Positions 379-34,733 of a DNA stretch of 39,724 nt are shown here, piece after piece. The notes under the pieces are model-generated. The model did not search any database. It was not told the DNA's origin and saw only the letters and a program-made list of their open reading frames with translations. The translations under genes were made by a program, and so were the position numbers. This stretch comes from Shigella phage ESh7. Position 1 is the first letter of the stretch, and each line of letters starts with the position of its first letter. The stretch lies in sequence record ON528720; one strand, given 5' to 3'.

Positions 379-1410
379 ATGAGGAACAACCGTATGAACA
401 TCTTCAAGACCAACCCATTCAAAGCTGTGTCATTCGTAGAGTCTGCCGTGAAGAAAGCCCTTGACAATGCTGGTTATTTGATTTGCGATATCAAATATGA
501 TGGCGTGCGTGGTAACATTGTGGTTGACAACGTGGCTGAGGCCGCATGGCTGTCCCGTGTGTCCAAGTTCATCCCGGCGCTGGAACATCTGAACGGTTTC
601 GATAAGCGCTGGCAACAACTGATGAATGATGACCGCTGCATTTTCCCGGACGGCTTCATGCTGGATGGTGAACTGATGGTCAAAGGCGTAGACTTCAACA
701 CAGGGTCTGGCCTACTGAGAACAAAGTGGCTCAAGAAGAACAACTGCATGTTTGACCGTGGTGGTGTTGAGCCGCTGAAAGGTTCAAAAGTAGCCTTTGA
801 GTTAGACCCTAAGCGCCTGAGTGTGCGCCTGTATGCGGTCATGCCGATTCACATTGCGGAGTCTGGTGAGGACTACGATGTGCAGAACCTGCTGATGCCG
901 TATCATGTGGAAGCCATGCGCTCTCTTCTGGTTGAATACTTCCCGGAAATCGAGTGGCTTATCGCTGAGACCTACGAGGTCTACGATATGGATTCACTGA
1001 GTGAACTGTACGAGGCCAAGCGTGCAGAAGGCCACGAGGGTCTCATTGTGAAAGACCCACAAGGCATCTACAAGCGAGGCAAGAAGTCTGGCTGGTGGAA
1101 ATGCAAGCCTAATGACGAAGCCGATGGTATTATTCAGGGTGTCAATTGGGGTACGCCGGGTCTTGCAAACGAAGGTAAAGTTATCGGGTTCTCTGTGCTT
1201 CTTGAGACTGGTCGTCTGGTTGACGCCAACAACATCTCTCGCGCATTGATGGATGAGTTTACCGCGAATGTTAAAGAACATGGCGAGGATTACTACAACG
1301 GGTGGGCCTGCCAGATTGGATATATGGAGGAAACACCCGATGGCTCATTGCGACACCCCTCATTCACCTGCTTCCGAGGAACTGAGGACAATCCACAAGA
1401 GAAAGTATAA
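379..1410 (+). CDS. 1.3: ATP-dependent DNA ligase
   Basis: 343 aa; adenylation motif KYDGVRG (lysine in ICDIKYDGVRG); position after gene 1.2 as in T7/T3. Confidence 0.9.
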   Translation: MRNNRMNIFKTNPFKAVSFVESAVKKALDNAGYLICDIKYDGVRGNIVVDNVAEAAWLSRVSKFIPALEHLNGFDKRWQQLMNDDRCIFPDGFMLDGELMVKGVDFNTGSGLLRTKWLKKNNCMFDRGGVEPLKGSKVAFELDPKRLSVRLYAVMPIHIAESGEDYDVQNLLMPYHVEAMRSLLVEYFPEIEWLIAETYEVYDMDSLSELYEAKRAEGHEGLIVKDPQGIYKRGKKSGWWKCKPNDEADGIIQGVNWGTPGLANEGKVIGFSVLLETGRLVDANNISRALMDEFTANVKEHGEDYYNGWACQIGYMEETPDGSLRHPSFTCFRGTEDNPQEKV

Positions 1411-1813
1411 GTTAGACCGGGAGGCTCCTTCGGGAGTCGCTTCCGCCTCTGGTAAACCTTTAGGGTATAAGCGGAAAGATGGCTACTGGATTCTCTCTTA
1501 TGGTGGCAAACAAATGCTGGCACATCGTGTGGTCTGGATGTTGACCCACGGTGAAATCCCGTAAGGTATGGTCATTGACCACATCAACAGGAACCCTAGT
1601 GATAACCGTATCGAAAACCTTCGGTGTGTCACTCAAGCTGTTAACTTATCGAATGTTGACGTCCGGTCTCATTGTTTAAGTGGCGAGAAGTATATTGCCC
1701 TTGACAAGAGAACCGGACGTTTTGCCGTTCGCATCAGGCGCAAATCCCACGGAACCTATGGAACCCTTGAGGAAGCTATAGCCGTGCGAGATGCTGCCAT
1801 TAACCCTCACTAA
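1409..1813 (+). pseudogene. HNH homing-endonuclease-like gene interrupted by in-frame TAA (1562-1564), no in-frame start codon downstream of ligase
   Basis: Frame-2 translation ...GYKRKDGYWILSYGGKQMLAHRVVWMLTHGEIP*GMVIDHINRNPSDNRIENLRCV... then AP2-like tail GRFAVRIRRKSHGTYGTLEEAIAVRDAA; classic HNH motif split by stop. Confidence 0.6.
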
Positions 1814-3705: not shown

Positions 3706-4176
3706 ATGAACCTGCGGGAGAAACTGGAGGCTTACTCTAAGGTGTCTCCCTCTGGTTGCTGGGAGTGGCGGCGAGCCACTGCTGGGAATGGTTATTGTTT
3801 AATATCCATAGGTCGCCAGCGTCAAGCATATGCGCACAGGGTATCATACTTCGTCTTCAATGAGCCAATTTCCGAAGGTCTTGTCATTAGACATAAGTGT
3901 GATAACCCTTGCTGTGTTAACCCTGAGCACCTAGAAGTTGGGACTCAGGCAGACAACATGCGGGACTGTAAGAAGCGTGGTCGTTTATCCGCGCCACCAG
4001 TAGCGAGAGGTGTACACAATCACAAGACTAAGCTGACCGATGAACAGGTAGCCTACATTGTGAACTCCACCAAGAGTAGCCGCGAGTTAGCCAACGAGTT
4101 TGGAGTATCGCCGCAGGCTATAAACTGGAGGAAGAGACAATGGCAGGCTACGTCGCAAAAGGAATCCGAAAAGTAG
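3706..4176 (+). CDS. HNH endonuclease with C-terminal helix-turn-helix region (gene 2.8 position)
   Basis: GCWEW...NGYC...HRVSY...HKCDNPCCVNPEHLEVGTQADN HNH motif; C-terminal TDEQVAYIVNSTKSSRELANEFGVSPQAINWRKRQW resembles HTH. Confidence 0.75.
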   Translation: MNLREKLEAYSKVSPSGCWEWRRATAGNGYCLISIGRQRQAYAHRVSYFVFNEPISEGLVIRHKCDNPCCVNPEHLEVGTQADNMRDCKKRGRLSAPPVARGVHNHKTKLTDEQVAYIVNSTKSSRELANEFGVSPQAINWRKRQWQATSQKESEK

Positions 4177-7245: not shown

Positions 7246-7530
7246 ATGAGCAAATCAATCACCCACGCAAACACCATCCGTCTGCCAGACACCGCTGACC
7301 AGTTCTCCCGCCGAGTACACATCAATGTACGCGGTGAGAAGGTCACGATGGTCTACCGCTGGAAAGACCACAAGTCTCCGAAAGCACACACTCAACGCAT
7401 GACCTTGGATGACAAGCAGGTCGGTCGCCTGATGGGTGCCCTGACTATGGCTGCTGACAAGGTGGTCGGTGATAACCGTGAGCGTCTGGTAGAGTTTGGC
7501 GCTGGTATGCAAGAGATTATCGAGAAGTGA
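7246..7530 (+). CDS. 4.5: gene 4.5 homolog, hypothetical
   Basis: 94-aa ORF with RBS AAGGAG; synteny. Confidence 0.5.
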   Translation: MSKSITHANTIRLPDTADQFSRRVHINVRGEKVTMVYRWKDHKSPKAHTQRMTLDDKQVGRLMGALTMAADKVVGDNRERLVEFGAGMQEIIEK

Positions 7531-7575
7531 TAAACTCAAGGTCGCCCAAGGGTGGCCTTTATGATTATCATTTAA
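7531..7575 (+). promoter_or_regulatory. RNase III-type processing hairpin upstream of gene 5
   Basis: AAACTCAAGGTCGCCCAAGGGTGGCCTTTATGATTATCA shares the ACTCAAGGTC...GGCCTTTATGAT motif. Confidence 0.45.
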
Positions 7576-7597: not shown

Positions 7598-9712
7598 ATG
7601 CTCGTAAGTGACATTGAGGCCAACAACCTCTTAGAGAAAGTCACCAAGTTTCACTGTGGCGTTATCTATGACTACCGTGATGGTGAGTACCATAGCTATC
7701 GTCCGGGCGACTTCGGGGCGTATCTGGATGCGCTGGAAGCCGAGGTGAAGCGAGGTGGGCTTATTGTTTTCCATAACGGTCACAAGTATGACGTTCCGGC
7801 TTTAGAGAAACTCGCAAAGCTGCAACTCAATCGTGACTTCAAGTTACCCCGTGAGAATTGTATTGACACATTGGTACTCTCGCGTTTACTTCATGCGAAC
7901 CTTAAAGACACAGACATGGGGCTTCTTCGTTCCGGGAAACTACCCGGTCGTCGCTTCGGGTCTCACGCTCTGGAGGCATGGGGTTATCGCTTGGGCGAGA
8001 TGAAGGGCGAATACAAGGACGACTTCAAGGCTATGCTGGAAGAGCAGGGCGAAGAATATGTTGATGGTGCTGAGTGGGTTTCATTCAACGAGCCGATGAT
8101 GGCGTATAACGTTCAAGACGTTGTGGTCACTGTCAAGCTCTTCGAGAAATTACTGAGTGACCTCCACTACTTCCCTGCTGGTATGGACTTCACGAAGTAC
8201 GATGCGGATTTATTCTGGCGTGAAGCTGGTGAGTCTGTGGATATTGAACATCGTGCAGCATGGCTTTTAGCGAAGCAGGAGCGTAATGGCTTCCCATTCA
8301 ACACCAAGGCAATTGAGGAACTTTATGTAGAACTTGCAGCGAAACGCGCCGAACTTCTTAGAAAGCTAACCGAAACGTTTGGCTCGTGGTATCAACCGAA
8401 AGGTGGTAAGGAACTCTTCAAGCACCCACGGACAGGCAAGCCGCTGCCGAGTTATCCTCGCGTGGTCTATCCGAAACATGGTGGCGTGTACAAGAAGCCT
8501 CGTAATAAGGCACAGCGCGAAGGTCTTGAACCTTGCGACTTGGACACGAGGGATTACATGGAGGGTGCTCCGTATACTCCGGTAGAGTTCGTTACGTTCA
8601 ATCCAAGTAGCCGTGACCACATTCAGAAGAAACTACAGGAGGCCGGATGGGTTCCTGAGAAGTTCACCGAGAAGGGTGCGCCTGTGGTGGACGATGAGGT
8701 CTTGGAGCATGTACGAGTGGATGACCCTGAGAAGCAGGCGTGCATTGACTTGATTAAAGAGTACCTGATGATACAGAAGCGTATCGGTCAGGCGGCAGAA
8801 GGTGACAAAGCGTGGTTACGTTATGTTCAAGATGATGGTAAGATTCATGGAGCCGTTAACCCTAACGGTGCAGTTACTGGTCGTGCTACTCATAGTTTCC
8901 CAAACCTTGCACAAGTACCCGGCGTTCGTTCTCCTTACGGGGAGCAGTGTCGTAGCGCTTTTGGTGCTGAACATCATTTGGATGGGATTACTGGCAAGCC
9001 GTGGGTTCAAGCGGGGATAGACGCCAGTGGCTTAGAGTTGCGCTGTCTGGCACACTTCATGGCTCGCTTCGACAACGGAGAGTATGCGAATGAGATTCTC
9101 AACGGTGACATTCACACCAAGAACCAGAACGCTGCGGAACTCCCAACGCGAGACAACGCCAAGACCTTCATTTACGGGTTCCTTTACGGAGCCGGAGATG
9201 AGAAGATTGGTCAGATTGTTGGGGCAGGGAAGGAGCGCGGGAAGGAACTCAAGAAGAAATTCTTAGAGAACACCCCGGCGATTGCAGCGCTACGAGAAGC
9301 TATCCAACAGTCTCTCGTTAAGTCTTCCGCTTGGATTGGTGGTGAGCAGAAAGTCCAGTGGAAGCGCCGTTGGATTAAAGGTCTGGATGGTCGCAAGGTT
9401 CACGTCAGGTCTCCACACGCAGCGCTCAACACATTGTTGCAGTCTGCTGGTGCTCTGATTTGTAAGCTGTGGATTATCAAGACCGAAGAGATGCTCATTG
9501 AGAAAGGCTTGAAGCACGGCTGGGATGGTGACTTTGCGTACATGGCTTGGGTTCATGATGAAGTCCAGATTGCGTGTCGCACCGAAGAGGTAGCCAAGGT
9601 CGTCGTAGAGGTAGCTCAAGAGGCTATGCGATGGGTTGGTGAACATTGGAACTTCCGTTGCCGCTTAGACACAGAGGGTAAGATTGGCCCGAACTGGGCG
9701 GTTTGTCACTAA
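7598..9712 (+). CDS. 5: DNA polymerase
   Basis: 704 aa (same as T7 gp5); exonuclease and polymerase motifs; FHNGHKYDVP, YGFLYGAG. Confidence 0.95.
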   Translation: MLVSDIEANNLLEKVTKFHCGVIYDYRDGEYHSYRPGDFGAYLDALEAEVKRGGLIVFHNGHKYDVPALEKLAKLQLNRDFKLPRENCIDTLVLSRLLHANLKDTDMGLLRSGKLPGRRFGSHALEAWGYRLGEMKGEYKDDFKAMLEEQGEEYVDGAEWVSFNEPMMAYNVQDVVVTVKLFEKLLSDLHYFPAGMDFTKYDADLFWREAGESVDIEHRAAWLLAKQERNGFPFNTKAIEELYVELAAKRAELLRKLTETFGSWYQPKGGKELFKHPRTGKPLPSYPRVVYPKHGGVYKKPRNKAQREGLEPCDLDTRDYMEGAPYTPVEFVTFNPSSRDHIQKKLQEAGWVPEKFTEKGAPVVDDEVLEHVRVDDPEKQACIDLIKEYLMIQKRIGQAAEGDKAWLRYVQDDGKIHGAVNPNGAVTGRATHSFPNLAQVPGVRSPYGEQCRSAFGAEHHLDGITGKPWVQAGIDASGLELRCLAHFMARFDNGEYANEILNGDIHTKNQNAAELPTRDNAKTFIYGFLYGAGDEKIGQIVGAGKERGKELKKKFLENTPAIAALREAIQQSLVKSSAWIGGEQKVQWKRRWIKGLDGRKVHVRSPHAALNTLLQSAGALICKLWIIKTEEMLIEKGLKHGWDGDFAYMAWVHDEVQIACRTEEVAKVVVEVAQEAMRWVGEHWNFRCRLDTEGKIGPNWAVCH

Positions 9713-9730: not shown

Positions 9731-10054
9731 GTGGCTACACTAAGGTTCCACAAGATGCCGACCGGGTGTGTAGTCTGCGTTTCACATAAGCGCAATCACG
9801 ATGGCTACTTCCGGTACAGTATAGTGTCGTCCAGAAAGGGCGAGAAGAAATGCTTTATGTTTCACCGCTGGGTTTGGGAACGACACCGTGGGCCTATACC
9901 AGAAGGGTATGAGATAGACCACTTGTGTCTGAACCGTGGGTGCTGCAACGTAGAACACCTGCAGTGCATCCCGAAGCGTGAGCACATAATCAAAACCAAC
10001 AAAGAGCACAAGCTCGTAAAGGAGAAACATTATGGCAATGACCAAACACTTTAA
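9731..10054 (+). CDS. 5.3: HNH endonuclease (gene 5.3 position)
   Basis: HRWVWERHRGPIPEGYEIDHLCLNRGCCNVEHLQCIPKREH; start codon uncertain (GTG 9731 or ATG 9755). Confidence 0.7.
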   Translation: MATLRFHKMPTGCVVCVSHKRNHDGYFRYSIVSSRKGEKKCFMFHRWVWERHRGPIPEGYEIDHLCLNRGCCNVEHLQCIPKREHIIKTNKEHKLVKEKHYGNDQTL

Positions 10055-10722: not shown

Positions 10723-11630
10723 GTTTGATTACCCTCAAAGACTTCGCTGAGATGCGCGAAGGAAAACCGATGGAGAATGGCGTGCTGGTCATGGATGGTG
10801 ACTGGCTTGTGTATCAGTCGATGGCTGCTGCCGAAGTTGAGACGGATTGGGGAGACGACATTTGGACTCTGGAGTGTGACCACGCTAAGGCTCGTAGCAT
10901 TCTTGATTCTGCAATCGAATCATACCGAACCCGCAAGAAGGCGTGGAGAGACGCTATGGTAGTTCTGGCGTTTACCGATGATGTTAACTGGCGTAAGGTG
11001 CTGGTCGATGAGACCTATAAGGAGAACCGCAGGGCGACCCGTAAGCCTGTGGGATACCGTGACTTCCTGTCGAAGCTGTGGGAGCGCGATGAGTTCATTC
11101 ACATCAAAGAGGACATGCTGGAAGGTGATGACGTTATGGGCATCATTGGGTCTGGTCACGAGGTCTTCGGCTTCAAGAAGGCTGTGTTGGTCTCCTGCGA
11201 CAAGGACTTCAAGACTATCCCGGACGTTGACTTCCTGTGGTGTACCACTGGTAACATCTTGACGCAGACCAAAGAGACCGCTGATTGGTGGCATCTCTTC
11301 CAGACCATCAAGGGTGATATGACTGATGGCTACTCCGGGATTCCCGGCTGGGGCGATACGGCAGAAGGTTTCCTGAATGACCCGTTCATTGTGGAGCCTG
11401 TAGAGTCCGTGTTGAAGTCTGGTAAGAACAAGGGGCAGATAGTAACCAAGTGGGTGAAGCGTGCTCCTGATGCGACTGAGACGCTGTGGGACTGCATTAA
11501 ATCCATTGGTGCCAAAGCTGGGATGACCGAGCAGGAAATAATCAAGCAAGGCCAGATGGCTCGCATTCTTCGCTTCGAGGAATACAATTACATTGACAAG
11601 GAGATTTACTTATGGACGCCGCGAAGCTGA
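10719..11630 (+). CDS. 6: 5'-3' exonuclease
   Basis: 303 aa; position and size as T7 gp6 (300 aa). Confidence 0.9.
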
Positions 11631-11725
11631 TTACCATCGCTGTGCTGGTAGGTATGCTGGCGCGAGGTCTCTGGATGTTAGCTCTCATAGTCAGAGACGT
11701 GAAGCGAGACTCAGAGATTAAGTGA
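11612..11725 (+). CDS. 6.3: gene 6.3 homolog, small hydrophobic protein (37 aa)
   Basis: [37 protein letters not shown]; overlaps end of gene 6. Confidence 0.4.
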
Positions 11726-11790
11726 TAAACTCAAGGCTCTCTACAATTAACCCTCACTAAAGGGAAGAGGGAGCCTTTATGATTATTACT
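11724..11790 (+). promoter_or_regulatory. RNase III-type hairpin (AAACTCAAGGCTCTC ... GAGGGAGCCTTTATGATTATT) enclosing a T3 promoter
   Basis: Complementary arms flank the promoter at 11744-11769. Confidence 0.45.
11744..11769 (+). promoter_or_regulatory. T3 RNA polymerase promoter
   Basis: CAATTAACCCTCACTAAAGGGAAGAG. Confidence 0.8.
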
Positions 11791-11818
11791 TTAAGACTTA
11801 ACCTTAAGAGGTGAAATT

Positions 11819-12064
11819 ATGTTACAACCAATTAATCATGTTTTAACTCATCCCGATGATATTCCTAGTATGCCGCGTGCAGCTAAAGAGTATCTACAGG
11901 TGCGCTTCAATCAGACCTATGTGATGGAGTCCGGGGAGTACCGTGCGCTACGCGCTGCTGGATACTCTGAGTCGTTCATTGCGGGTGTGATGCATGGTCT
12001 GTACCTTGCCTCTCGAACACTTGATGAGATTGAGGTGCGTAAAGAGCAACTGAGACAGGGGTAA
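11819..12064 (+). CDS. 6.5: gene 6.5 homolog
   Basis: 81-aa ORF with RBS AAGAGGTGA; synteny. Confidence 0.55.
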   Translation: MLQPINHVLTHPDDIPSMPRAAKEYLQVRFNQTYVMESGEYRALRAAGYSESFIAGVMHGLYLASRTLDEIEVRKEQLRQG

Positions 12065-12068
12065 TCAT

Positions 12069-12320
12069 ATGTGCTGGAAACCGAAGGTGAAAGTCCCTAA
12101 GATGGACACTAACCAGATTCGCGCTGCCGAACCAGCACCTTTGACTGAGCCACCGAAATCTGTGGTATGGGGAGGCGATGACGATGAGGACACCAGCGTG
12201 TCTTCCTCTGAGGTTCCAACCACACAGAGCAGCGGAAAGAGCAGTCTAAAGGTAAAGCTGGATGACAACGCAGCCAAGAACAAGAGTAAATCCTCCATTC
12301 GCTCCAAGGCGTTTGGGTAA
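12069..12320 (+). CDS. 6.7: gene 6.7 homolog (virion protein in T7)
   Basis: MCWKPKVKVPKMDTNQIRAAEPAPLT... matches T7 gp6.7 N-terminus pattern MCFSPKIKTPKMDTNQIRAVEPAP. Confidence 0.65.
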   Translation: MCWKPKVKVPKMDTNQIRAAEPAPLTEPPKSVVWGGDDDEDTSVSSSEVPTTQSSGKSSLKVKLDDNAAKNKSKSSIRSKAFG

Positions 12321-12346
12321 CTGTGACATAACATAGGGGACACATT

Positions 12347-12667
12347 ATGGGATTCTTCAAGAAAGTCAAGAAAGCCGTTAAAAAAGTTGTGAGGGAAGTT
12401 AGCAGACCAGTCGAGAAGGCTGGTAAGGAAGTCGGTAAAGTCGTTGGCGGTGCGCTTGGTGCAGGTAAGCGGGAGATTATCCAACAAGAGGCTCCAGCAC
12501 CAGTAGTGACTGCGCCACCTCCAGCACAGATTGTAGATGTACCTGAACAGGATAAGGCTGAGGGTGAGGATGCGGCGCAAACCGAGAGCTCACGTAAGAA
12601 GGAACGCGCTGGTGGTAAGAAGTCTCTGAGTGTAGCCCGTAGCTCAGGCGGTGGCATCAACATCTAA
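12347..12667 (+). CDS. 7.3: gene 7.3 homolog (tail-associated protein)
   Basis: C-terminus KKSLSVARSSGGGINI identical in pattern to T7 gp7.3. Confidence 0.7.
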   Translation: MGFFKKVKKAVKKVVREVSRPVEKAGKEVGKVVGGALGAGKREIIQQEAPAPVVTAPPPAQIVDVPEQDKAEGEDAAQTESSRKKERAGGKKSLSVARSSGGGINI

Positions 12668-12677
12668 GGAGGACTGA

Positions 12678-14285
12678 ATGGCTGACTCTAAACGTACAGG
12701 CTTAGGCGAAGATGGTGCTAAAGCTACCTATGACCGCCTAACTAACGACCGTAGAGCCTATGAGACTCGTGCGGAAAACTGTGCGCAATACACCATTCCG
12801 TCCTTGTTCCCGAAGGAGTCCGATAACGAATCTACCGACTACACGACTCCGTGGCAGGCTGTAGGTGCGCGGGGTCTCAACAATCTGGCCTCTAAGTTAA
12901 TGCTGGCACTATTCCCGATGCAGTCGTGGATGAAGCTGACCATTAGTGAATATGAGGCGAAGCAGCTTGTTGGAGACCCTGATGGACTCGCTAAGGTGGA
13001 CGAAGGTCTGTCTATGGTTGAGCGTATTATCATGAATTATATCGAATCCAACAGTTACCGTGTAACACTCTTTGAGTGCCTCAAGCAGTTAATCGTGGCT
13101 GGTAACGCACTGCTTTACTTACCGGAACCCGAAGGTAGCTACAATCCGATGAAGCTGTACCGATTGTCTTCTTATGTTGTCCAACGAGACGCATACGGCA
13201 ATGTGTTACAGATTGTCACTCGTGACCAGATAGCCTTTGGTGCTCTCCCGGAAGACGTTCGGTCTGCGGTAGAGAAAGCTGGTGGTGAGAAGAAGATGGA
13301 CGAAATGGTCGATGTGTACACCCATGTATATCTCGATGAAGAGTCCGGCGATTACCTCAAGTACGAGGAAGTAGAGGACGTTGAGATTGATGGCTCCGAT
13401 GCCACCTATCCGACTGACGCTATGCCATACATTCCGGTTCGCATGGTTCGCATTGATGGCGAGTCTTACGGTCGCTCCTACTGTGAAGAATACTTAGGTG
13501 ACTTAAGGTCTCTTGAGAATCTCCAAGAGGCTATCGTTAAGATGAGCATGATTAGCGCGAAGGTCATTGGTCTGGTGAACCCGGCTGGCATTACGCAGCC
13601 ACGTAGATTAACCAAAGCTCAGACTGGTGACTTCGTTCCCGGTCGTCGAGAAGACATTGACTTCCTACAACTGGAGAAGCAAGTTGACTTTACCGTAGCG
13701 AAAGCTGTGAGTGACCAGATAGAAGCACGCTTATCGTATGCCTTTATGTTGAACTCTGCGGTACAGCGCACAGGTGAACGTGTGACAGCCGAAGAGATTC
13801 GATACGTTGCGTCAGAACTGGAAGATACGCTTGGTGGTGTCTATTCGATTCTGTCTCAAGAACTGCAATTGCCTCTGGTTCGTGTGCTATTGAAGCAACT
13901 CCAAGCAACCTCGCAGATTCCTGAGCTACCGAAAGAAGCCGTTGAGCCTACTATCAGTACAGGTCTGGAAGCAATCGGGCGTGGTCAAGACCTCGATAAG
14001 CTGGAGCGCTGTATCTCCGCTTGGGCTGCTCTGGCTCCTATGCAGGGAGACCCGGACATTAACCTTGCTGTCATTAAGCTGCGCATTGCTAACGCCATTG
14101 GTATTGATACTTCTGGTATCCTACTGACGGACGAGCAGAAGCAAGCCCTGATGATGCAGGATGCGGCCCAAACAGGTATCGAGAACGCTGCCGCCACTGG
14201 TGGGGCTGGTGTTGGTGCTCTAGCGACCTCAAGTCCAGAAGCTATGCAGGGTGCCGCAGCACAGGTTGGCCTAGACGCCACCTAA
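12678..14285 (+). CDS. 8: portal (head-tail connector) protein
   Basis: 535 aa vs 536 in T7; synteny before scaffold and capsid. Confidence 0.95.
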   Translation: MADSKRTGLGEDGAKATYDRLTNDRRAYETRAENCAQYTIPSLFPKESDNESTDYTTPWQAVGARGLNNLASKLMLALFPMQSWMKLTISEYEAKQLVGDPDGLAKVDEGLSMVERIIMNYIESNSYRVTLFECLKQLIVAGNALLYLPEPEGSYNPMKLYRLSSYVVQRDAYGNVLQIVTRDQIAFGALPEDVRSAVEKAGGEKKMDEMVDVYTHVYLDEESGDYLKYEEVEDVEIDGSDATYPTDAMPYIPVRMVRIDGESYGRSYCEEYLGDLRSLENLQEAIVKMSMISAKVIGLVNPAGITQPRRLTKAQTGDFVPGRREDIDFLQLEKQVDFTVAKAVSDQIEARLSYAFMLNSAVQRTGERVTAEEIRYVASELEDTLGGVYSILSQELQLPLVRVLLKQLQATSQIPELPKEAVEPTISTGLEAIGRGQDLDKLERCISAWAALAPMQGDPDINLAVIKLRIANAIGIDTSGILLTDEQKQALMMQDAAQTGIENAAATGGAGVGALATSSPEAMQGAAAQVGLDAT

Positions 14286-14305
14286 TAACCCTCACTAAAG
14301 GGAGA
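14283..14305 (+). promoter_or_regulatory. T3 RNA polymerase promoter
   Basis: TAATAACCCTCACTAAAGGGAGA; gene 8 stop codon lies inside it. Confidence 0.8.
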
Positions 14306-14386
14306 CCTCATCTTTGAAATGAGCGATGACTAAAGGTTGGAGTCCTTTGGTTTCCCTTTATCTTTAACAACTTAGGAGATTTAACA

Positions 14387-15319
14387 ATGGCTGAATCTAA
14401 TGCAGACGTTTATGCGTCCTTCGGTGTGAACAACGCGGTAATGACCGGAAGCACACCTACTGAACACGAACAGAATATGCTGAGTCTCGATGTTGCTGCC
14501 CGTGATGGCGATGATGCAATCGTGCTTAGCGAGGAACCAACTTCCCATAACGATGACCCATATGCGGCAGGTGCAGACCCGTTCGCTGGTGGTGAAGATG
14601 ATGAGGGTCGCATTCAGGTTCGTATCAGTGAAGATGGCAATGAAGCCGAGTTAGACACTGCTGGCGATAACTCTGAGGTGGAGACCGAAGGTGATGACGT
14701 TGAGTTTGAACCGCTGGGTGACACTCCAGAAGAACTGAGCCAAGTGACTGAGCAATTAGGCAAGCACGAAGAAGGCTTTCAGGCGATGGTCGAGCAGGCA
14801 GTTGAGCGTGGACTGAGCGCAGACTCTGTGACTCGCATCTACGAAGAGTATGAAGCCGATGGCATCTCTGAGAAATCCTATGCGGAACTCGAAGCTGCTG
14901 GATATAGCCGTGCCTTTGTGGACTCCTACATCTCCGGTCAGGAAGCCCTTGTAGACCAGTACGTCAATCAGGTAGTTGCCTTTGCTGGTGGTAAGGAGCG
15001 CTTTAGCGCAATCCATACGCACCTTGAAGCGACCAACCCGGCTGCGGCTGAGTCCCTTGAGGCTGCCATGATGAACCGAGACTTGGCGACTATCAAAGCG
15101 ATTATCAATCTGGCTGGTGAGAGTTACACGAAGAAATTCGGTAAGCCTGCCAACCGTAGTGTTACCAAGCGTGCTACTCCGGTTAAACCTGTAGCTCGTC
15201 AGAAAGAGGGCTTTACGAATCAGGCTGAGATGATTAAAGCTATGAGTGACCCGCGTTACCGTAGTGATGCTGCCTACCGTCAAATGGTAGAACAGAAGGT
15301 TATCGACTCCAGTTTCTAA
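14387..15319 (+). CDS. 9: capsid assembly (scaffolding) protein
   Basis: 310 aa, highly acidic; position between portal and major capsid. Confidence 0.9.
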   Translation: MAESNADVYASFGVNNAVMTGSTPTEHEQNMLSLDVAARDGDDAIVLSEEPTSHNDDPYAAGADPFAGGEDDEGRIQVRISEDGNEAELDTAGDNSEVETEGDDVEFEPLGDTPEELSQVTEQLGKHEEGFQAMVEQAVERGLSADSVTRIYEEYEADGISEKSYAELEAAGYSRAFVDSYISGQEALVDQYVNQVVAFAGGKERFSAIHTHLEATNPAAAESLEAAMMNRDLATIKAIINLAGESYTKKFGKPANRSVTKRATPVKPVARQKEGFTNQAEMIKAMSDPRYRSDAAYRQMVEQKVIDSSF

Positions 15320-15340
15320 TTAACCCTCACTAAAGGGAGA
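15317..15340 (+). promoter_or_regulatory. T3 RNA polymerase promoter (gene 10 promoter)
   Basis: TAATTAACCCTCACTAAAGGGAGA exact consensus; followed by strong RBS TAAGGAGAT. Confidence 0.85.
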
Positions 15341-15475
15341 GACCATAGATGACTACAATGGTTGAATCACCTGAGCACAGGACTTTGTGGTCACTCCCGT
15401 AGGTGAAACATTGAGAACCAACTCGATTCAAGTAGTAACCAAACTTTTCTTTAAATTAACATAAGGAGATTCAAC

Positions 15476-16519
15476 ATGGCTAACATTCAAGGCGGACAGC
15501 AAATTGGTACTAATCAGGGTAAGGGTCAGTCCGCAGCGGACAAATTGGCGCTGTTCCTGAAAGTGTTCGGCGGTGAAGTCCTGACGGCTTTCGCTCGAAC
15601 CTCCGTGACCATGCCTCGTCACATGCTGCGCTCTATTGCTTCTGGTAAGTCCGCACAGTTCCCTGTGATTGGTCGCACCAAAGCTGCTTACCTGAAACCG
15701 GGTGAGAACCTCGATGACAAACGTAAGGATATCAAACACACCGAGAAGGTAATCCACATTGATGGCCTGCTGACTGCGGACGTTCTGATTTACGACATTG
15801 AAGACGCGATGAACCACTATGACGTTCGCGCCGAGTACACCGCACAGTTGGGTGAATCTCTGGCGATGGCGGCTGACGGTGCTGTACTGGCTGAACTGGC
15901 TGGTCTGGTTAACCTGCCGGACGCCTCCAATGAGAACATCGAGGGTCTCGGTAAGCCTACTGTACTGACTCTGGTTAAGCCGACCACTGGCGACCTGACT
16001 GACCCGGTTGAGCTGGGTAAAGCGATTATCGCTCAGTTGACCGTTGCTCGTGCTGCTCTGACCAAGAACTACGTTCCGGCTGCTGACCGTACTTTCTACA
16101 CCACTCCTGATAACTACTCCGCGATTCTGGCTGCTCTGATGCCGAACGCTGCAAACTATCAGGCACTGATTGACCCTGAGCGCGGTACTATCCGTAACGT
16201 GATGGGCTTCGAAGTGGTTGAGGTTCCGCACCTGACTGCTGGTGGTGCTGGTGATGACCGCGAGGACACTCCGGCTGGCCAGAAGCACGCTTTCCCGGCG
16301 ACTTCCAGCACTACCGTTAAGGTTGCTCTGGATAACGTTGTTGGCCTGTTCCAGCACCGCTCTGCGGTTGGTACGGTCAAGCTGAAAGACTTGGCTCTGG
16401 AGCGCGCTCGTCGTGCGAACTATCAGGCTGACCAGATTATCGCTAAATATGCGATGGGTCACGGCGGTCTGCGTCCAGAAGCTGCTGGCGCTATCGTTCT
16501 CCCAAAGGTGTCGAAGTAA
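15476..16519 (+). CDS. 10A: major capsid protein 10A
   Basis: 347 aa; strong RBS; synteny; most abundant structural gene followed by terminator. Confidence 0.95.
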   Translation: MANIQGGQQIGTNQGKGQSAADKLALFLKVFGGEVLTAFARTSVTMPRHMLRSIASGKSAQFPVIGRTKAAYLKPGENLDDKRKDIKHTEKVIHIDGLLTADVLIYDIEDAMNHYDVRAEYTAQLGESLAMAADGAVLAELAGLVNLPDASNENIEGLGKPTVLTLVKPTTGDLTDPVELGKAIIAQLTVARAALTKNYVPAADRTFYTTPDNYSAILAALMPNAANYQALIDPERGTIRNVMGFEVVEVPHLTAGGAGDDREDTPAGQKHAFPATSSTTVKVALDNVVGLFQHRSAVGTVKLKDLALERARRANYQADQIIAKYAMGHGGLRPEAAGAIVLPKVSK

Positions 16520-16773
16520 TTCCCGACCCCACTGGAGTTACTCTTAGTCAGAAGACTATGAGCTTAGACGTTGGGGCTTCTAAAGCCCTGACTTCTACGG
16601 TAACTCCGGCTGATGCAGTACAGACAGTGACATTTACGTCTTCCAATGCGAAGATTGCCACGGTCGATGCCTCTGGTACTGTAACTGCTGTGGGCGCTGG
16701 CTCCGCTGACATCACTGCGACTACTGTGAATGGCCTGACGGCTGTCTGCAAGGTCACTGTGAGAGCAGTATAG
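15476..16773 (+). CDS. 10B: minor capsid protein 10B (10A plus -1 frameshift C-terminal extension containing an Ig-like Big_2-type domain)
   Basis: -1 frame after CCCAAAG encodes ...[85 protein letters not shown]; T7 makes 10B by -1 frameshift. Confidence 0.55.
16501..16507 (+). promoter_or_regulatory. candidate -1 programmed frameshift slippery heptamer C_CCA_AAG
   Basis: X_XXY_YYZ heptamer in the gene 10A frame, 4 codons before its stop; -1 frame is open from 16447 to 16773. Confidence 0.5.
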
Positions 16774-16830
16774 CCTCCCGTAGAAGGCTAAGGTCTTTAC
16801 CGGGGATTTACTTTCCTTCATTACTTTATG

Positions 16831-16872
16831 AACCCCTTGGGTGCCCTCTGAGGGTATCTGAGGGGTTTTTTT
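16831..16872 (+). terminator. T-phi-like transcription terminator
   Basis: AACCCCTTGGGTGCCCTCTGAGGGTATCTGAGGGGTTTTTTTG: GC stem-loop plus U-tract, same architecture as T7 T-phi. Confidence 0.8.
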
Positions 16873-16874
16873 GC

Positions 16875-16897
16875 TTTAAACCCTCACTAACAGGAGG
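16875..16897 (+). promoter_or_regulatory. T3 RNA polymerase promoter (AACAGGAGG variant)
   Basis: TTTAAACCCTCACTAACAGGAGG. Confidence 0.7.
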
Positions 16898-16904
16898 TAA
16901 CATC

Positions 16905-17495
16905 ATGCGCTCTTATGAGATGAACATTGAGACCGCAGAAGAGCTATCAGCCGTCAACGACATTCTGGCTTCCATCGGTGAGCCACCAGTATCAACCCTT
17001 GAGGGTGATGCGAATGCTGACGTTGCGAATGCTCGACGTGTACTCAATAAGATTAACCGACAGATTCAGTCACGAGGATGGACGTTCAATATCGAAGAGG
17101 GTGTTACCCTTCTGCCTGATGCGTTCTCTGGCATGATTCCATTTAGCTCTGACTACCTGTCAGTAATGGCAACCAGCGGTCAGACCCAATATATCAACCG
17201 TGGTGGCTATCTCTATGACCGCTCTGCGAAGACTGACCGATTCCCCGCTGGTGTTCAGGTCAACCTGATTCGCCTGAGAGAGTTCGATGAGATGCCTGAG
17301 TGCTTCCGTAACTACATCGTCACCAAGGCTTCCCGCCAGTTTAACAACCGCTTCTTCGGTGCGCCGGAGGTAGAAGGAGTGTTGCATGAAGAGGAACAGG
17401 AAGCGTGGCGTGCGTGCTTCGAGTACGAACTAGACTACGGCAACTACAACATGCTGGACGGTGACGCATTCACCTCTGGTCTACTTAACCGCTAA
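16905..17495 (+). CDS. 11: tail tubular protein A
   Basis: 196 aa, same as T7 gp11; synteny. Confidence 0.9.
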
Positions 17496-17510
17496 TCATA
17501 AGGAGGCTCT

Positions 17511-19916
17511 ATGGCTCTCATTAGTCAATCAATCAAGAACCTCAAGGGTGGTATCAGCCAACAGCCAGATATTCTCCGGTTCGCTGAACAAGGTAGCGTA
17601 CAGATTAACGGTTGGTCTTCTGAGTCCGGGGGTCTCCAGAAGCGCCCACCGATGATTCACCTTAAGACCCTTGGTGCCGCTGGGTATGTGGGTGCTCAAC
17701 CTTACGTCCACCTCATCAACCGCGATGAGTTCGAGCAGTATTTCGTTGTGTTCACTGGTGAAGACATTAAGGTGTTCGACCTCGATGGTAAGGAGTATCT
17801 AGTACGTGGAGACCGCTCTTATGTGCGCACAGCTAACCCACGGGAAGACCTTCGGATGGTAACGGTGGCAGACTATACCTTTGTGACAAACCGTAAGGTG
17901 GTTGTGCAGAGTAACGACCAATCGGTCAACCTTCCGGGCTTTAAAGACCAAGGCGATGCGCTGATTAATGTTCGTGGTGGGCAATATGGACGTAGGCTCT
18001 CAATCGAGTTCAACGGGGCTGAGCGTGCTGCTATTCAGCTACCAGACGGCTCACAACCAGCACACGTCAATGAGGTTGACGGTCAGACCATCGCTGAGAA
18101 GCTGGCGGCTAAGTTGCGGAATAACCTAGGGAATCCAAACAACGAGCAAGACCCGAATAAGTGGCGCTTCAACGTTGGCCCCGGATTCATCCATATCATT
18201 GCGCCTAATAACGATAACGTTTGGGGACTACAGACTAAGGATGGTTACGCAGACCAGCTAATCAACCCTGTAACCCACTACGCTCAGTCGTTCCAGAAGT
18301 TGCCGATTAACGCTCCAGATGGGTACATTGTGAAGATTGTAGGTGACACCTCAAAGACTGCCGACCAGTATTACGTTAGGTTCGACCTCAACCGTAAGGT
18401 ATGGGTAGAAACAATCGGCTGGAACACAAGGACTCACCTGCATTACCACACGATGCCTTGGGCGCTGGTACGTGCTTCTGACGGGAACTTTGACTTCAAG
18501 GTACTTGAGTGGGGCGCTCGTACTGTGGGTGATGATACAACTAACCCATACCCATCGTTTACCGGACAGACAATCAATGATATTTTCTTCTTCCGTAACC
18601 GTTTAGGCTTCCTTAGTGGGGAGAACATCATCTTGTCTCGCACCTCGAAATACTTCAACTTCTTCCCGGCCTCCGTGTCAAACTACTCCGACGATGACCC
18701 AATCGACGTTGCGGTTAGCCACAACCGGGTGTCAACCTTGAAGTATGCCGTTCCGTTCTCAGAAGAGTTGCTCCTATGGTCTGACCAAGCGCAGTTCGTT
18801 CTGACGGCTTCTGGTATCCTATCGAGTCGCTCCGTAGAGTTGAACCTTACGACTCAGTTTGATGTGCAAGACAGGGCGCGACCACACGGTGTTGGGCGTA
18901 ATGTGTACTTTGCGTCACCTCGCGCTTCCTTCACATCCATTAACAGATACTATGCGGTACAGGATGTAAGCTCTGTGAAGAACGCAGAGGACATGACGGC
19001 TCACGTTCCGAACTACATACCTAATGGGGTATTTAGTATCTCAGGCACAACCGCTGAGAACTTCGCGGCTATCCTTACGAGCGGAGCACCGAACCGGGTG
19101 TATATCTACAAGTTCCTCTATATCGATGAAGAAATCAGGCAGCAGTCGTGGTCTCATTGGGACTTTGGGGACAACGTTACGGTGTTTGCAGCACAGGTGA
19201 TAAACGCAACAATGACTGTATTGATGAGCAATGAACATGCTGTGTGGATTGGACGCTTACACTTCACGAAGAACTCCATAGACATTCCGGGAGAGCCTTA
19301 CAGATTATACATCGACGCTAAGAGGAAGTACACCATACCTGCCGGGACATACAACGATGATACCTACCAGACGTCCATAAGCCTCGCAGCGATTTATGGG
19401 ATGAACTTCACTAAGGGTAGAGTGTCTGTGGTCTTCCCTGATGGAAAGATTATAGAGGTAGACCCGCCAATCAACGGTTGGAGCAGTGACCCGGTGTTAC
19501 GACTCGATGGGAACCAAGAGGGCCAAGTGGTTTACATTGGGTTCAACATCCTGTTCACTTATACGTTCTCGAAGTTCCTCATCAAGAAGACTGTTGAGGA
19601 TGGCTCGACGGCTACCGAGGATATTGGTCGCTTACAGCTTCGGCGTGCGTGGGTAAACTATGAGGACTCTGGAGCGTTCACCATCCGTGTGAACAACCTG
19701 TCCCGCGAGTTCGTCTACACAATGGCTGGCGCTCGCTTGGGTTCCGACAATCTGCGTGTCGGTAGGTCGAACATTGGCACAGGGCAGTACCGATTCCCGG
19801 TGGTGGGTAATGCGCAGACGAACATAGTAACTATCGAGTCATACGCATCAACCCCACTGAACATCATTGGGTGTGGATGGGAGGGTAACTACCTTCGTCG
19901 TTCTTCTGGCATTTAA
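17511..19916 (+). CDS. 12: tail tubular protein B
   Basis: 801 aa; synteny. Confidence 0.9.
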   Translation: MALISQSIKNLKGGISQQPDILRFAEQGSVQINGWSSESGGLQKRPPMIHLKTLGAAGYVGAQPYVHLINRDEFEQYFVVFTGEDIKVFDLDGKEYLVRGDRSYVRTANPREDLRMVTVADYTFVTNRKVVVQSNDQSVNLPGFKDQGDALINVRGGQYGRRLSIEFNGAERAAIQLPDGSQPAHVNEVDGQTIAEKLAAKLRNNLGNPNNEQDPNKWRFNVGPGFIHIIAPNNDNVWGLQTKDGYADQLINPVTHYAQSFQKLPINAPDGYIVKIVGDTSKTADQYYVRFDLNRKVWVETIGWNTRTHLHYHTMPWALVRASDGNFDFKVLEWGARTVGDDTTNPYPSFTGQTINDIFFFRNRLGFLSGENIILSRTSKYFNFFPASVSNYSDDDPIDVAVSHNRVSTLKYAVPFSEELLLWSDQAQFVLTASGILSSRSVELNLTTQFDVQDRARPHGVGRNVYFASPRASFTSINRYYAVQDVSSVKNAEDMTAHVPNYIPNGVFSISGTTAENFAAILTSGAPNRVYIYKFLYIDEEIRQQSWSHWDFGDNVTVFAAQVINATMTVLMSNEHAVWIGRLHFTKNSIDIPGEPYRLYIDAKRKYTIPAGTYNDDTYQTSISLAAIYGMNFTKGRVSVVFPDGKIIEVDPPINGWSSDPVLRLDGNQEGQVVYIGFNILFTYTFSKFLIKKTVEDGSTATEDIGRLQLRRAWVNYEDSGAFTIRVNNLSREFVYTMAGARLGSDNLRVGRSNIGTGQYRFPVVGNAQTNIVTIESYASTPLNIIGCGWEGNYLRRSSGI

Positions 19917-19935
19917 CTTAAAGTCTCCCTGCGGT

Positions 19936-19959
19936 GAATTAACCCTCACTAAAGGGAGA
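19936..19959 (+). promoter_or_regulatory. T3 RNA polymerase promoter
   Basis: GAATTAACCCTCACTAAAGGGAGA. Confidence 0.8.
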
Positions 19960-19991
19960 CACTAATAGATACGAGGGGGTGTTAAAGCATT

Positions 19992-20408
19992 ATGTACATT
20001 ACAAAGTGTTTACAAAACCACGCTGACAACTTTCAGCCGTCCATAGAGGACATTCTGGAAGCTGAGGCACTAGGTGTTGAACCAAAGGTAATTCCTGATG
20101 AGAACACTGTGGCGATGCTGAGCGATAGCGCTGTGTTGGCAATCGGTGGCAATCAGGGAGACCGAGTGTGGTTCCTTACCTCTAAGTACGTCCCACTGTT
20201 TACCTTGAAGGAGCGCTTAGAGTTTCGTAGACTTATAATTGAATATCGTAATAAGATGCTAAGCCAGTATGAGTCAATTTGGAACTTCGTTTGGGTTGGC
20301 AATAAGTCACACATTCGTTTCCTAAAGACCATAGGCGCTGTGTTCCACAATGAATACACAGGAGGTGGTCAATTTCAACTATTCACAATCACAAGGAGGA
20401 ACCCTTGA
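19992..20408 (+). CDS. 13: internal virion / assembly protein gene 13 homolog
   Basis: 138 aa, same as T7 gp13; synteny. Confidence 0.8.
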   Translation: MYITKCLQNHADNFQPSIEDILEAEALGVEPKVIPDENTVAMLSDSAVLAIGGNQGDRVWFLTSKYVPLFTLKERLEFRRLIIEYRNKMLSQYESIWNFVWVGNKSHIRFLKTIGAVFHNEYTGGGQFQLFTITRRNP

Positions 20409-20791
20409 AGAAGTGCAGCAAGTGCTCCGAATTGAAGGAGCTAACAGAGTTCTATAAGGACAAGACCAAACCTGACGGCCTGCGGTGTTCCTGCAAGGCT
20501 TGCCAAGGTGAGACCAAGAAGTCCTATCGAGTCATCAAGGATAGAAACCTTCGGCGTCTATATGGAATCGGTCTGAATGAGTATGAAGAAATGCTCGCTA
20601 AGCAGAATGGCGTCTGTGCAATCTGCGGTATTACCGAGAGAGTTGAGGGACGGGCGTTAGCGGTTGACCATTGCCACGCCACTGGCGCTGTTCGTGGTCT
20701 CCTTTGCTCTGCCTGTAACATCGCTCTTGGGAAATTCGAGGACGACACCGAGCGTCTTCGGAAGGCAATCACTTACCTAAGAGGAGAATAA
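20405..20791 (+). CDS. endonuclease VII-like / HNH-type nuclease with N-terminal zinc ribbon
   Basis: TTG start 6 nt after AAGGAGGA; CSKC...CSCKAC then CAICG...LAVDHCHATGAVRGLLCSACNIALGKF, the DHxH...RGLLCxxCN signature of the endonuclease VII fold. Confidence 0.7.
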   Translation: MKKCSKCSELKELTEFYKDKTKPDGLRCSCKACQGETKKSYRVIKDRNLRRLYGIGLNEYEEMLAKQNGVCAICGITERVEGRALAVDHCHATGAVRGLLCSACNIALGKFEDDTERLRKAITYLRGE

Positions 20792-20793
20792 CT

Positions 20794-21387: not shown

Positions 21388-21389
21388 TA

Positions 21390-27614: not shown

Positions 27615-27632
27615 ACCCTCACTAAAGGGAGA
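27610..27632 (+). promoter_or_regulatory. T3 RNA polymerase promoter
   Basis: AATAAACCCTCACTAAAGGGAGAG; gene 16 stop inside it. Confidence 0.8.
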
Positions 27633-33646: not shown

Positions 33647-33675
33647 TTGACAACATGAAGTAAACGCAGTAAGAT
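33647..33675 (+). promoter_or_regulatory. host sigma70 early promoter (A2-like)
   Basis: TTGACA, 17-nt spacer, TAAGAT; TTGACAACATGAAGTAA as in T7 A2/A3. Confidence 0.7.
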
Positions 33676-33756
33676 GTACCACATAGCGTTAACCGCCGAT
33701 TCGGTGTCTTCTAGGTGACTTAAGCGCACCACGGCACATAAAGCGAAACAAAATGG

Positions 33757-34714: not shown

Positions 34715-34733
34715 CATTACAGGAGGATTAGTA

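What the first reader, a model, noticed from the sequence alone, without database searches (positions are those of the whole stretch)
12320..12678. No genes 7 or 7.7 around gene 7.3 (compared with T7)
Gene 6.7 ends at 12320, gene 7.3 runs 12347-12667 and gene 8 starts at 12678, leaving no room for the T7 gene 7 or the gene 7.7 that in T7 sits between 7.3 and 8. Likewise there is no gene 4.7-sized ORF between 4.5 and 5. These absences fit a T3-like rather than T7-like backbone, and they show that the accessory gene content at inter-module junctions is the fluid part of this genome.
Basis: partly seen in the sequence, partly recalled or inferred. Interest (0 to 1): 0.2.

Follow-up and report, generated by a model that had tools for sequence, protein, structure and literature searches.

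The report
Standard T3-type gene layout, nothing missing
This phage genome belongs to the well-known T3/phiYeO3-12 group, whose members all lack the T7 accessory genes 7, 7.7 and 4.7, so their absence here is ordinary.

Summary
Gene 6.7 ends at 12320, 7.3 runs 12347-12667 and gene 8 starts at 12678, leaving spacers of 26 and 10 nt. Genes 4.5 and 5 are 67 nt apart. This layout matches T3 exactly and matches phiYeO3-12, Patroon and AP5 apart from a 1-nt longer first spacer. About 97 of 100 close relatives show it without interruption.

The window is a circularly permuted phiYeO3-12/T3-group (Teetrevirus) genome:
- 93.7% identity to phiYeO3-12 over 97% of its length, and 85.8% to T3.
- Only 72.7% identity to T7, over 75% of its length.
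- 11 T3-type promoters and no T7-type promoters.

Profile searches of the six-frame translation find no gene 7 or 4.7 homologue. T7 gp7.7 is an HNH endonuclease, and it matches three paralogous HNH genes elsewhere in the window, but these are not orthologues.

The three absences have different histories. Gene 7.7 is a gain in the T7 lineage: its DNA occurs in 115 phage records, against 1,275 that hold the 7.3/8 region. Genes 7 and 4.7 are older accessory genes found at the same positions in other genera, and the T3 group lacks them.

All of this is already known biology, so interest is low. Side observations: a nonsense codon in the gene 1.45 HNH endonuclease, and gene 7.3 as a gene-sized patch of high divergence.

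The parts
11745..11767 (+). T3-type late promoter phi6.5 (AATTAACCCTCACTAAAGGGAAG), which drives genes 6.5-6.7-7.3-8
   Evidence: 2 mismatches to the T3 consensus. Same position as the annotated phi6.5 of T3 and phiYeO3-12.
11819..12064 (+). Gene 6.5 (81 aa)
   Evidence: Pfam T7-like_Y65, E 5.1e-43; 97.5% aa identity to T3.
12069..12320 (+). Gene 6.7 (83 aa), small virion protein
   Evidence: Pfam T7-like_gp67, E 1.4e-26; phrog_1391; 97.6% aa identity to T3.
12321..12346 (+). 26-nt spacer between 6.7 and 7.3, the position where T7 and some other genera carry gene 7
   Evidence: one base differs from T3 (17736-17761). T7 has the 402-nt gene 7 here.
12347..12667 (+). Gene 7.3 (106 aa), tail-associated protein needed for adsorption; T3-type allele
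   Evidence: Pfam VirionAssem_T7, E 1.2e-24; phrog_1320; 87.7% identity to T3 and 56.5% to T7. The 106 aa (T3) versus 99 aa (T7) lengths match PMC3276506.
12668..12677 (+). 10-nt spacer GGAGGACTGA (gene 8 Shine-Dalgarno), the unoccupied site where T7 carries the HNH endonuclease gene 7.7
   Evidence: window 12673 aligns to T7 19840 and window 12677 to T7 20239, so T7 has 398 extra bases. The spacer is identical in T3, phiYeO3-12 and Patroon.
12678..14285 (+). Gene 8, portal (head-tail connector) protein, 535 aa
   Evidence: phrog_449, E 4e-220; 98.7% identity to T3.
14283..14305 (+). T3-type promoter phi9
   Evidence: No promoter match lies between 11767 and 14283.
7246..7530 (+). Gene 4.5 (94 aa)
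   Evidence: T7 gp4.5 hits at E 6.5e-27.
7525..7573 (+). RNase III-type hairpin R4.7 in the 67-nt spacer between 4.5 and 5. T7 has the phi4.7 promoter and gene 4.7 after its own R4.7.
   Evidence: The first 55 aligned bases are identical to the region of T3's annotated R4.7 site. It folds at -20.9 kcal/mol, z = -2.67. It matches T7 13864-13894 at 90%.
7598..9712 (+). Gene 5, DNA polymerase
   Evidence: 86.8% aa identity to T7 gp5.
1340..1813 (+). Gene 1.45 HNH endonuclease, a paralogue of T7 gp7.7, interrupted by a TAA codon at 1562-1564
   Evidence: apart from that codon, one residue (Val to Ala) differs from phiYeO3-12 gp1.45. Codon 75 is GAA in phiYeO3-12 and Patroon and TAA here.
3706..4176 (+). 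T7 gene 2.8-like HNH_3 endonuclease between genes 2.5 and 3; the best gp7.7 paralogue in the window
   Evidence: Pfam HNH_3, E 9.3e-11. blastp against T7 gives gp2.8 at 5e-27 and gp7.7 at 3e-17. Absent from T3 and phiYeO3-12.
9731..10054 (+). T3-type gene 5.3 HNH_3 endonuclease
   Evidence: Pfam HNH_3, E 1.1e-18; 88.8% identity to T3 gp5.3. Absent from Patroon.

Best explanation
The window is a complete, circularly permuted genome of a phiYeO3-12/T3-group podophage (genus Teetrevirus). The tight arrangement of gene 6.7, a 26-nt spacer, gene 7.3, a 10-nt spacer and gene 8, read as one late transcript from promoter phi6.5, is the standard layout of that group. Nothing has been lost in this particular phage.

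The differences from T7 have two origins. T7 gene 7.7 is a free-standing HNH homing-type endonuclease gene that entered the 7.3/8 junction in the immediate T7 lineage. The window, like almost all other Studiervirinae, has the unoccupied site, where the gene 8 ribosome-binding site follows the 7.3 stop codon directly. This direction of change is inferred from the distribution of the gene. Genes 7 and 4.7 are dispensable accessory genes that sit at the same positions in several other genera. The T3 group lacks them, either through ancestral loss or because it never had them; the direction is not resolved here. In place of the phi4.7 promoter and gene 4.7, the window keeps only the R4.7 RNase III hairpin ahead of gene 5.
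For: T3 has the same spacer lengths; phiYeO3-12, Patroon and the published phage AP5 have a first spacer 1 nt longer and the same second spacer. Whole-genome blastn gives T3 36,031 bp at 85.8% and T7 29,836 bp at 72.7%, phiYeO3-12 38,693 bp at 93.7% and Patroon 37,203 bp at 95.5%. The window has 11 T3-type promoters and no T7-type promoters.

Of 102 close relatives, 95 match the 1301-bp locus without interruption, and all 40 listed hits span 1300-1302 bp. In a spread sample of the 1,275 records that hold the region, only T7, YpsP-G and HZ2R8 show about 392-395 extra bases at the 7.3/8 junction. Other Teseptimavirus, Przondovirus, Berlinvirus, Erwinia and Pseudomonas phages run straight through it. 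T7 gene 7.7 DNA is in only 115 records, 108 of them at 95% identity or more. gp7.7 is an HNH_3 protein.

gp7 homologues occur in 206 records and sit between 6.7 and 7.3 in Teseptimavirus, Berlinvirus and Eapunavirus. gp4.7 homologues occur in 559 records and sit just before gene 5 in the Przondovirus phages K11 and K30. Neither gene has a homologue in the window by tblastn or by profile HMM, nor in T3, phiYeO3-12 or Patroon. The R4.7 hairpin is conserved. T7 genes 7.7 and 4.3-4.7 can be deleted seamlessly, yielding a viable reduced-genome phage (PMC12153263).
Against: The direction of change for genes 7 and 4.7 (loss in the T3 group versus gains elsewhere) was not tested on a phylogeny. No tool result or paper read here shows that gp7.7 has homing or endonuclease activity; that rests on family membership alone. 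The junction survey sampled 60 of 1,275 records, so rare different inserts at the 7.3/8 junction could have been missed.
Confidence: 0.92

Rival explanations
1. The genes are present but have moved elsewhere in the genome.
For: T7 gp7.7 hits three places in the window: 3757-4146 (E 3e-15), 1463-1768 (E 9e-7) and 9848-9961 (E 7e-6). All three are HNH_3 ORFs.
Against: These ORFs are only 29-39% identical to gp7.7, whereas backbone proteins are 50-93% identical. Each matches another gene as well or better: 3706-4176 matches T7 gp2.8 at 5e-27 and lies in the gene 2.8 position, 9731-10054 is 88.8% identical to T3 gp5.3, and 1340-1813 is the near-identical orthologue of phiYeO3-12 gp1.45. gp7 and gp4.7 have no hit at all, with a best profile E of 0.19 and 3.8.
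Confidence: 0.03
2. The absence is a recent deletion, or an assembly artefact, specific to this phage or sequence.
For: T7 readily produces viable deletion mutants of non-essential genes, and 7.7 and 4.7 are dispensable.
Against: T3 shows the identical spacer lengths and near-identical spacer sequences, and phiYeO3-12, Patroon and AP5 match apart from 1 nt in the first spacer. About 95-97 independently sequenced relatives from many hosts show the same uninterrupted locus. T3, phiYeO3-12 and Patroon lack the same three genes.
Confidence: 0.02
3. The real coding content of the interval is on the other strand. Long antisense ORFs of 171 and 184 aa (12065-12580 and 12109-12663, minus strand) overlap 6.7 and 7.3.
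For: Both ORFs are listed. Stop-free antisense stretches also exist in T3, phiYeO3-12, Patroon and T7.
Against: Neither ORF matches any PHROG family. Their lengths and ends are not conserved among relatives, ranging from 130 to 240 aa. All 11 phage promoters are on the + strand. The sense ORFs have strong Pfam matches. The sense genes almost entirely avoid the TTA, CTA and TCA codons, which is enough to keep the wobble-matched antisense frame open.
Confidence: 0.01

Closest known systems
Yersinia phage phiYeO3-12 (NC_001271; Teetrevirus YeO312)
   Same: 38,693 of 39,724 bp align at 93.7% identity. The gene order is the same, including 1.45, 5.3 and 13.5. The 6.7/7.3/8 layout is the same, with spacers of 27 and 10 nt. 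The promoter type is the same, including a T3-type phi17 promoter.
   Different: The window has an extra gene 2.8-like HNH endonuclease at 3706-4176 and a nonsense codon in gene 1.45. It also differs in short stretches at 16566-16830, 33652-33754 and 34711-34931, and gene 7.3 is 10.9% diverged.
Enterobacteria phage T3 (NC_003298)
   Same: The 26-nt and 10-nt spacers are the same length. The locus is 94.8% identical. T3 lacks genes 7, 7.7 and 4.7, uses T3-type promoters and has the R4.7 site between genes 4.5 and 5.
   Different: T3 lacks genes 1.45, 2.8-like and 13.5, has a different tail-fibre C-terminus, and carries a T7-type promoter sequence before gene 17. Overall identity is only 85.8%.
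Klebsiella phage Patroon (MK608335)
   Same: It has the highest overall identity, 95.5% over 37,203 bp, and the same 6.7/7.3/8 layout.
   Different: Patroon lacks genes 5.3 and 13.5, carries an extra HNH gene between 1.2 and 1.3, has a different HNH allele between 2.5 and 3, and has a different tail-fibre C-terminus.
Escherichia phage T7 (NC_001604; Teseptimavirus)
   Same: It shares the overall gene order and homologues of 6.5, 6.7, 7.3 and 8.
   Different: T7 carries gene 7 (402 nt) in the 6.7/7.3 spacer, gene 7.7 (an HNH gene within a 398-nt insert) in the 7.3/8 spacer, and phi4.7 plus gene 4.7 after R4.7. It uses T7-type promoters and is only 72.7% identical over 75% of the window.

Membership tests
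T3/phiYeO3-12 group (genus Teetrevirus, Studiervirinae) | Genome-wide nucleotide identity to genus members at genus level. The roughly 70% over full length figure is the ICTV convention, from my own knowledge. | tested here: met
   93.7% over 97% of the window against phiYeO3-12, 95.5% over 94% against Patroon, and 85.8% over 91% against T3.
T3/phiYeO3-12 group (genus Teetrevirus, Studiervirinae) | T3-type rather than T7-type phage RNA polymerase promoters | tested here: met
   11 matches to AATTAACCCTCACTAAAGGGAGA with up to 3 mismatches, all on the + strand and at the expected positions. No matches to the T7 consensus.
T3/phiYeO3-12 group (genus Teetrevirus, Studiervirinae) | Collinear gene order with 6.7, 7.3 and 8 directly adjacent and 4.5 followed by R4.7 and gene 5 | tested here: met
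T7 gp7.3 family (Pfam PF11653, VirionAssem_T7) | Full-length match above the Pfam gathering score | tested here: met
   87.2 bits against a cut-off of 25; E 1.2e-24; residues 5-106.
T7 gp6.7 family (Pfam PF17570) | Match above the Pfam gathering score | tested here: met
   93.1 bits against a cut-off of 25; E 1.4e-26.
T7 gene 7.7-type free-standing HNH endonuclease at the 7.3/8 junction | An ORF with an HNH_3 domain between genes 7.3 and 8 | tested here: not met
   Only 10 nt separate 7.3 and 8. The insert is precisely absent in the alignment with T7.
T7 gene 7 family (phrog_2746, 'host range') | A homologue anywhere in the genome | tested here: not met
   tblastn best E 0.31. A profile HMM from five genera gives a best E of 0.19, against a control of 2e-65.
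T7 gene 4.7 family (phrog_4023) | A homologue anywhere in the genome | tested here: not met
   tblastn best E 0.70. A profile HMM gives a best E of 3.8, against a control of 3e-71.

The most novel reading that the evidence does not exclude
The junction TAAGGAGGACTGAATG between genes 7.3 and 8, flanked by the invariant gp7.3 C-terminus and the start of the portal gene, could be an intact cleavage and homing site for a T7 gp7.7-type HNH endonuclease. In a mixed infection, T7 would then cut T3-group genomes here and copy gene 7.7 into them, or exclude their local markers. The same two spacers might also act as joints for swapping gene 7.3 alleles, which would explain the gene-sized divergence patch.
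Probability: 0.12. Interest if true: 0.3.

Novelty: already known. Interest (0 to 1): 0.07.

Why it matters
It matters little. The result classifies the window as a phiYeO3-12/T3-type genome and shows that lacking genes 7, 7.7 and 4.7 is the group's normal state. The one useful refinement is that T7, the textbook reference, is the outlier for gene 7.7. Using T7 as the yardstick therefore makes ordinary genomes look as if they had lost something.

Tried and rejected
1. I looked for relocated homologues of gp7, gp7.7 and gp4.7 with tblastn of all T7 proteins and with profile HMMs on the six-frame translation. There were none for 7 or 4.7, and only HNH paralogues for 7.7.

2. I tested whether the long antisense ORFs over 6.7 and 7.3 might be real. 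They have no family match and no conserved ends, and no promoter lies on the minus strand. The synonymous/non-synonymous counts cannot separate the two strands, because the wobble positions coincide in that frame.

3. I looked for remnants of genes 7 or 7.7 in the spacers. At 26 and 10 nt the spacers are too short to hold any. MAFFT aligned the start of T7 gene 7.7 (GGAAGACTGCATTGAATGG) to the window's GGAGGACTGAATGG. This could be a trace of the ancestral junction or simply chance, and I did not pursue it.

4. I tried to read the phiYeO3-12 genome paper under a PMC id recalled from memory; no paper was held under that id. I did not attempt the T3 genome paper. No paper I read states the T3-versus-T7 gene list explicitly, so the 'already known' verdict rests on the GenBank annotations and on PMC4283147 and PMC3276506.

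5. Three tool calls failed because a search term was too short.
Full report
**Observation**

The ORF list and the sequence confirm every coordinate in the finding. Gene 6.7 is 12069-12320, gene 7.3 is 12347-12667 and gene 8 is 12678-14285. The intervening spacers are 26 nt (CTGTGACATAACATAGGGGACACATT) and 10 nt (GGAGGACTGA, the gene 8 Shine-Dalgarno sequence directly after the 7.3 TAA stop codon).

The gene names are justified by family matches:
- ORF 11819-12064 matches Pfam T7-like_Y65 (gene 6.5) at E 5.1e-43.
- ORF 12069-12320 matches Pfam T7-like_gp67 at E 1.4e-26.
- ORF 12347-12667 matches Pfam VirionAssem_T7 at E 1.2e-24.
- ORF 12678-14285 matches the head-tail adaptor family phrog_449 at E 4e-220.

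Gene 4.5 (7246-7530) and gene 5 (7598-9712) are 67 nt apart. In the T7 reference, gene 7 (19130-19531) lies between 6.7 and 7.3, gene 7.7 (19848-20240) lies between 7.3 and 8, and gene 4.7 (13927-14334) lies between 4.5 and 5.

**What the window is**

The window starts near gene 1.2, and the single terminal-repeat copy is at about 33053-33281.

| Reference | Aligned bp | Identity |
|---|---|---|
| phiYeO3-12 | 38,693 | 93.7% |
| Patroon | 37,203 | 95.5% |
| T3 | 36,031 | 85.8% |
| T7 | 29,836 | 72.7% |

One unbroken 93.2% block (window 10785-16565 = T3 16200-21981) covers the whole locus. T3 has the same 26-nt and 10-nt spacers. phiYeO3-12, Patroon and the published phage AP5 have 27 and 10 nt.

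An independent test is promoter type. The window has 11 T3-type promoters, all on the + strand and at the expected sites, including phi6.5 at 11745-11767 and phi9 at 14283-14305. It has no T7-type promoters. There is no promoter between phi6.5 and phi9, so 6.5-6.7-7.3-8 reads as one late transcription unit.

Protein identities point the same way:

| Protein | Identity to T3 | Identity to T7 |
|---|---|---|
| gp6.5 | 97.5% | 53.6% |
| gp6.7 | 97.6% | 48.9% |
| gp7.3 | 87.7% | 56.5% |
| gp8 | 98.7% | 84.2% |

The 106-aa length of gp7.3 and its roughly 56% identity to T7's 99-aa protein match published values (PMC3276506).

**Are the genes elsewhere?**

tblastn of every T7 protein against the window gives a best E of 0.31 for gp7 and 0.70 for gp4.7. 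I also built profile HMMs from diverged homologues:
- Gene 7 profile: T7, Tarrare, PC127, P694 and phiEap-1.
- Gene 4.7 profile: T7, Whistle, K11 and K30.

On the six-frame translation these reach only E 0.19 and 3.8, while they recover the T7 genes at 2e-65 and 3e-71. T3, phiYeO3-12 and Patroon lack both genes too.

Gene 7.7 is different, because gp7.7 is an HNH_3 endonuclease. It matches three other HNH_3 ORFs in the window: 3706-4176, 1340-1813 and 9731-10054. These are paralogues, not a relocated gene 7.7:
- They are 29-39% identical to gp7.7.
- ORF 3706-4176 matches T7 gp2.8 better (5e-27 against 3e-17) and sits in the gene 2.8 position.
- ORF 9731-10054 is 88.8% identical to T3 gp5.3.
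- ORF 1340-1813 is the near-identical orthologue of phiYeO3-12 gp1.45.

**What the absences mean**

Alignment at the junctions shows that both T7 genes are clean insertions relative to the window. Window 12673 aligns to T7 19840 and window 12677 aligns to T7 20239, so T7 has 398 extra bases there.

A distant-mode survey of the 6.7-to-8 interval found 1,275 phage records. In the spread sample, only T7, YpsP-G and HZ2R8 have about 392-395 extra bases at the 7.3/8 junction. The match runs through the junction uninterrupted in the T3 group, other T7-like phages (CICC 80001, JSS2), Klebsiella KP32- and K11-type phages, Berlinvirus, Erwinia L1 and Pseudomonas phages.

The DNA of T7 gene 7.7 occurs in only 115 records, nearly all T7 isolates or lab strains plus a few Yersinia pestis phages. 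I infer that 7.7 is a recent gain by the T7 lineage, typical of a free-standing homing-type endonuclease gene, and that the window has the usual empty site.

Genes 7 and 4.7 have a different history. gp7 homologues occur in 206 records and sit between 6.7 and 7.3 in Teseptimavirus, Berlinvirus and Eapunavirus. gp4.7 homologues occur in 559 records and sit just before gene 5 in the Przondovirus phages K11 and K30. These are older, syntenic accessory genes that the T3 group lacks. Whether this reflects loss or never having had them was not resolved here.

The 4.5/5 spacer is not empty. Its first 55 aligned bases are identical to the region of T3's annotated RNase III site R4.7. It folds into a stable hairpin of -20.9 kcal/mol with z = -2.67. 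It corresponds to T7 13864-13894, which in T7 is followed by promoter phi4.7 and gene 4.7. T7 genes 7.7 and 4.3-4.7 have been deleted seamlessly, yielding a viable reduced-genome phage (PMC12153263).

**The 'fluid junctions' claim**

This holds for the genome as a whole but not for this locus. Within the T3 group, the 6.7/7.3/8 junctions are invariant: 95 of 102 close relatives match the 1301-bp locus in one piece, and all 40 listed hits span 1300-1302 bp.

Elsewhere, the window differs from T3, phiYeO3-12 and Patroon in these segments:
- 1.45 (1340-1813), a free-standing nuclease gene at a gene junction.
- A 2.8-like gene (3706-4176), also a junction nuclease gene.
- 5.3 (9731-10054), also a junction nuclease gene.
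- 13.5, of Endonuclease VII type (20405-20791), also a junction nuclease gene.
- The tail-fibre C-terminus.
- Short stretches in the early region, the gene 5.9 region and downstream of the capsid gene.

The same pattern has been published for Citrobacter phages SH1 and SH2 compared with phiYeO3-12 (PMC4925675).

**Rejected alternatives**

A deletion or assembly artefact specific to this phage is excluded, because the layout is shared by about 100 independent genomes. The long antisense ORFs over 6.7 and 7.3 (171 and 184 aa) match no family, have no conserved ends and have no promoter on their strand. The sense genes avoid the TTA, CTA and TCA codons, which is enough to keep that antisense frame open.

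**Verdict**

The biology is already known, so the score is low.

Noticed in passing
window 1340-1813 (stop codon at 1562-1564): This is the orthologue of phiYeO3-12 gene 1.45, an HNH endonuclease of 157 aa. It matches at all but two positions. Codon 75 is TAA here instead of GAA (a single G-to-T change at 1562), and Patroon and phiYeO3-12 both have GAA. The other difference is one Val-to-Ala change. The stop falls just before the catalytic DH...N motif, so this is either a nonsense-inactivated homing endonuclease or a sequencing error.
   Followed up: partly
window 12365-12666 (gene 7.3): Gene 7.3 is a gene-sized patch of high divergence. It differs from T3 by 11.8%, from phiYeO3-12 by 10.9% and from Patroon by 5.0%, against 2-3% in genes 6.5, 6.7 and most of gene 8. 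Synonymous changes are raised even in the amino-acid-invariant C-terminus. This suggests exchange of 7.3 alleles between lineages, or an old allele.
   Followed up: partly
window 3706-4176: A T7 gene 2.8-like HNH_3 endonuclease lies between genes 2.5 and 3. It is absent from T3 and phiYeO3-12. Patroon has an HNH gene at the same junction, but its sequence did not align at the DNA level.
   Followed up: partly
window 20405-20791: An Endonuclease VII-family ORF (Pfam E 1.1e-29, apparent TTG start) lies between genes 13 and 14. It corresponds to phiYeO3-12 gene 13.5 and is absent from T3 and Patroon.
   Followed up: partly
window 33053-33281 and the window ends: The window is circularly permuted. 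It begins near gene 1.2, gene 1 (RNA polymerase) is at 36465-39116, and a single copy of the roughly 230-bp terminal repeat lies at about 33053-33281. That repeat aligns to both ends of T3, so the true genome ends are probably there.
   Followed up: no
window 27610-27632: A T3-type promoter with 1 mismatch precedes gene 17, as in phiYeO3-12. T3 itself carries an unused T7-type promoter sequence at this position.
   Followed up: no
window 28106-29627: The C-terminal part of tail-fibre gene 17 does not align with T3, T7 or Patroon but does align with phiYeO3-12. This suggests a phiYeO3-12-like receptor specificity.
   Followed up: no
window 12668-12690 versus T7 19848-19870: The first bases of T7 gene 7.7 (GTGGAAGACTGCATTGAATGG) resemble the window's gene 8 ribosome-binding site and start (GGAGGACTGAATGG). 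This could be a trace of the ancestral junction captured by the insert, or it could be chance.
   Followed up: no
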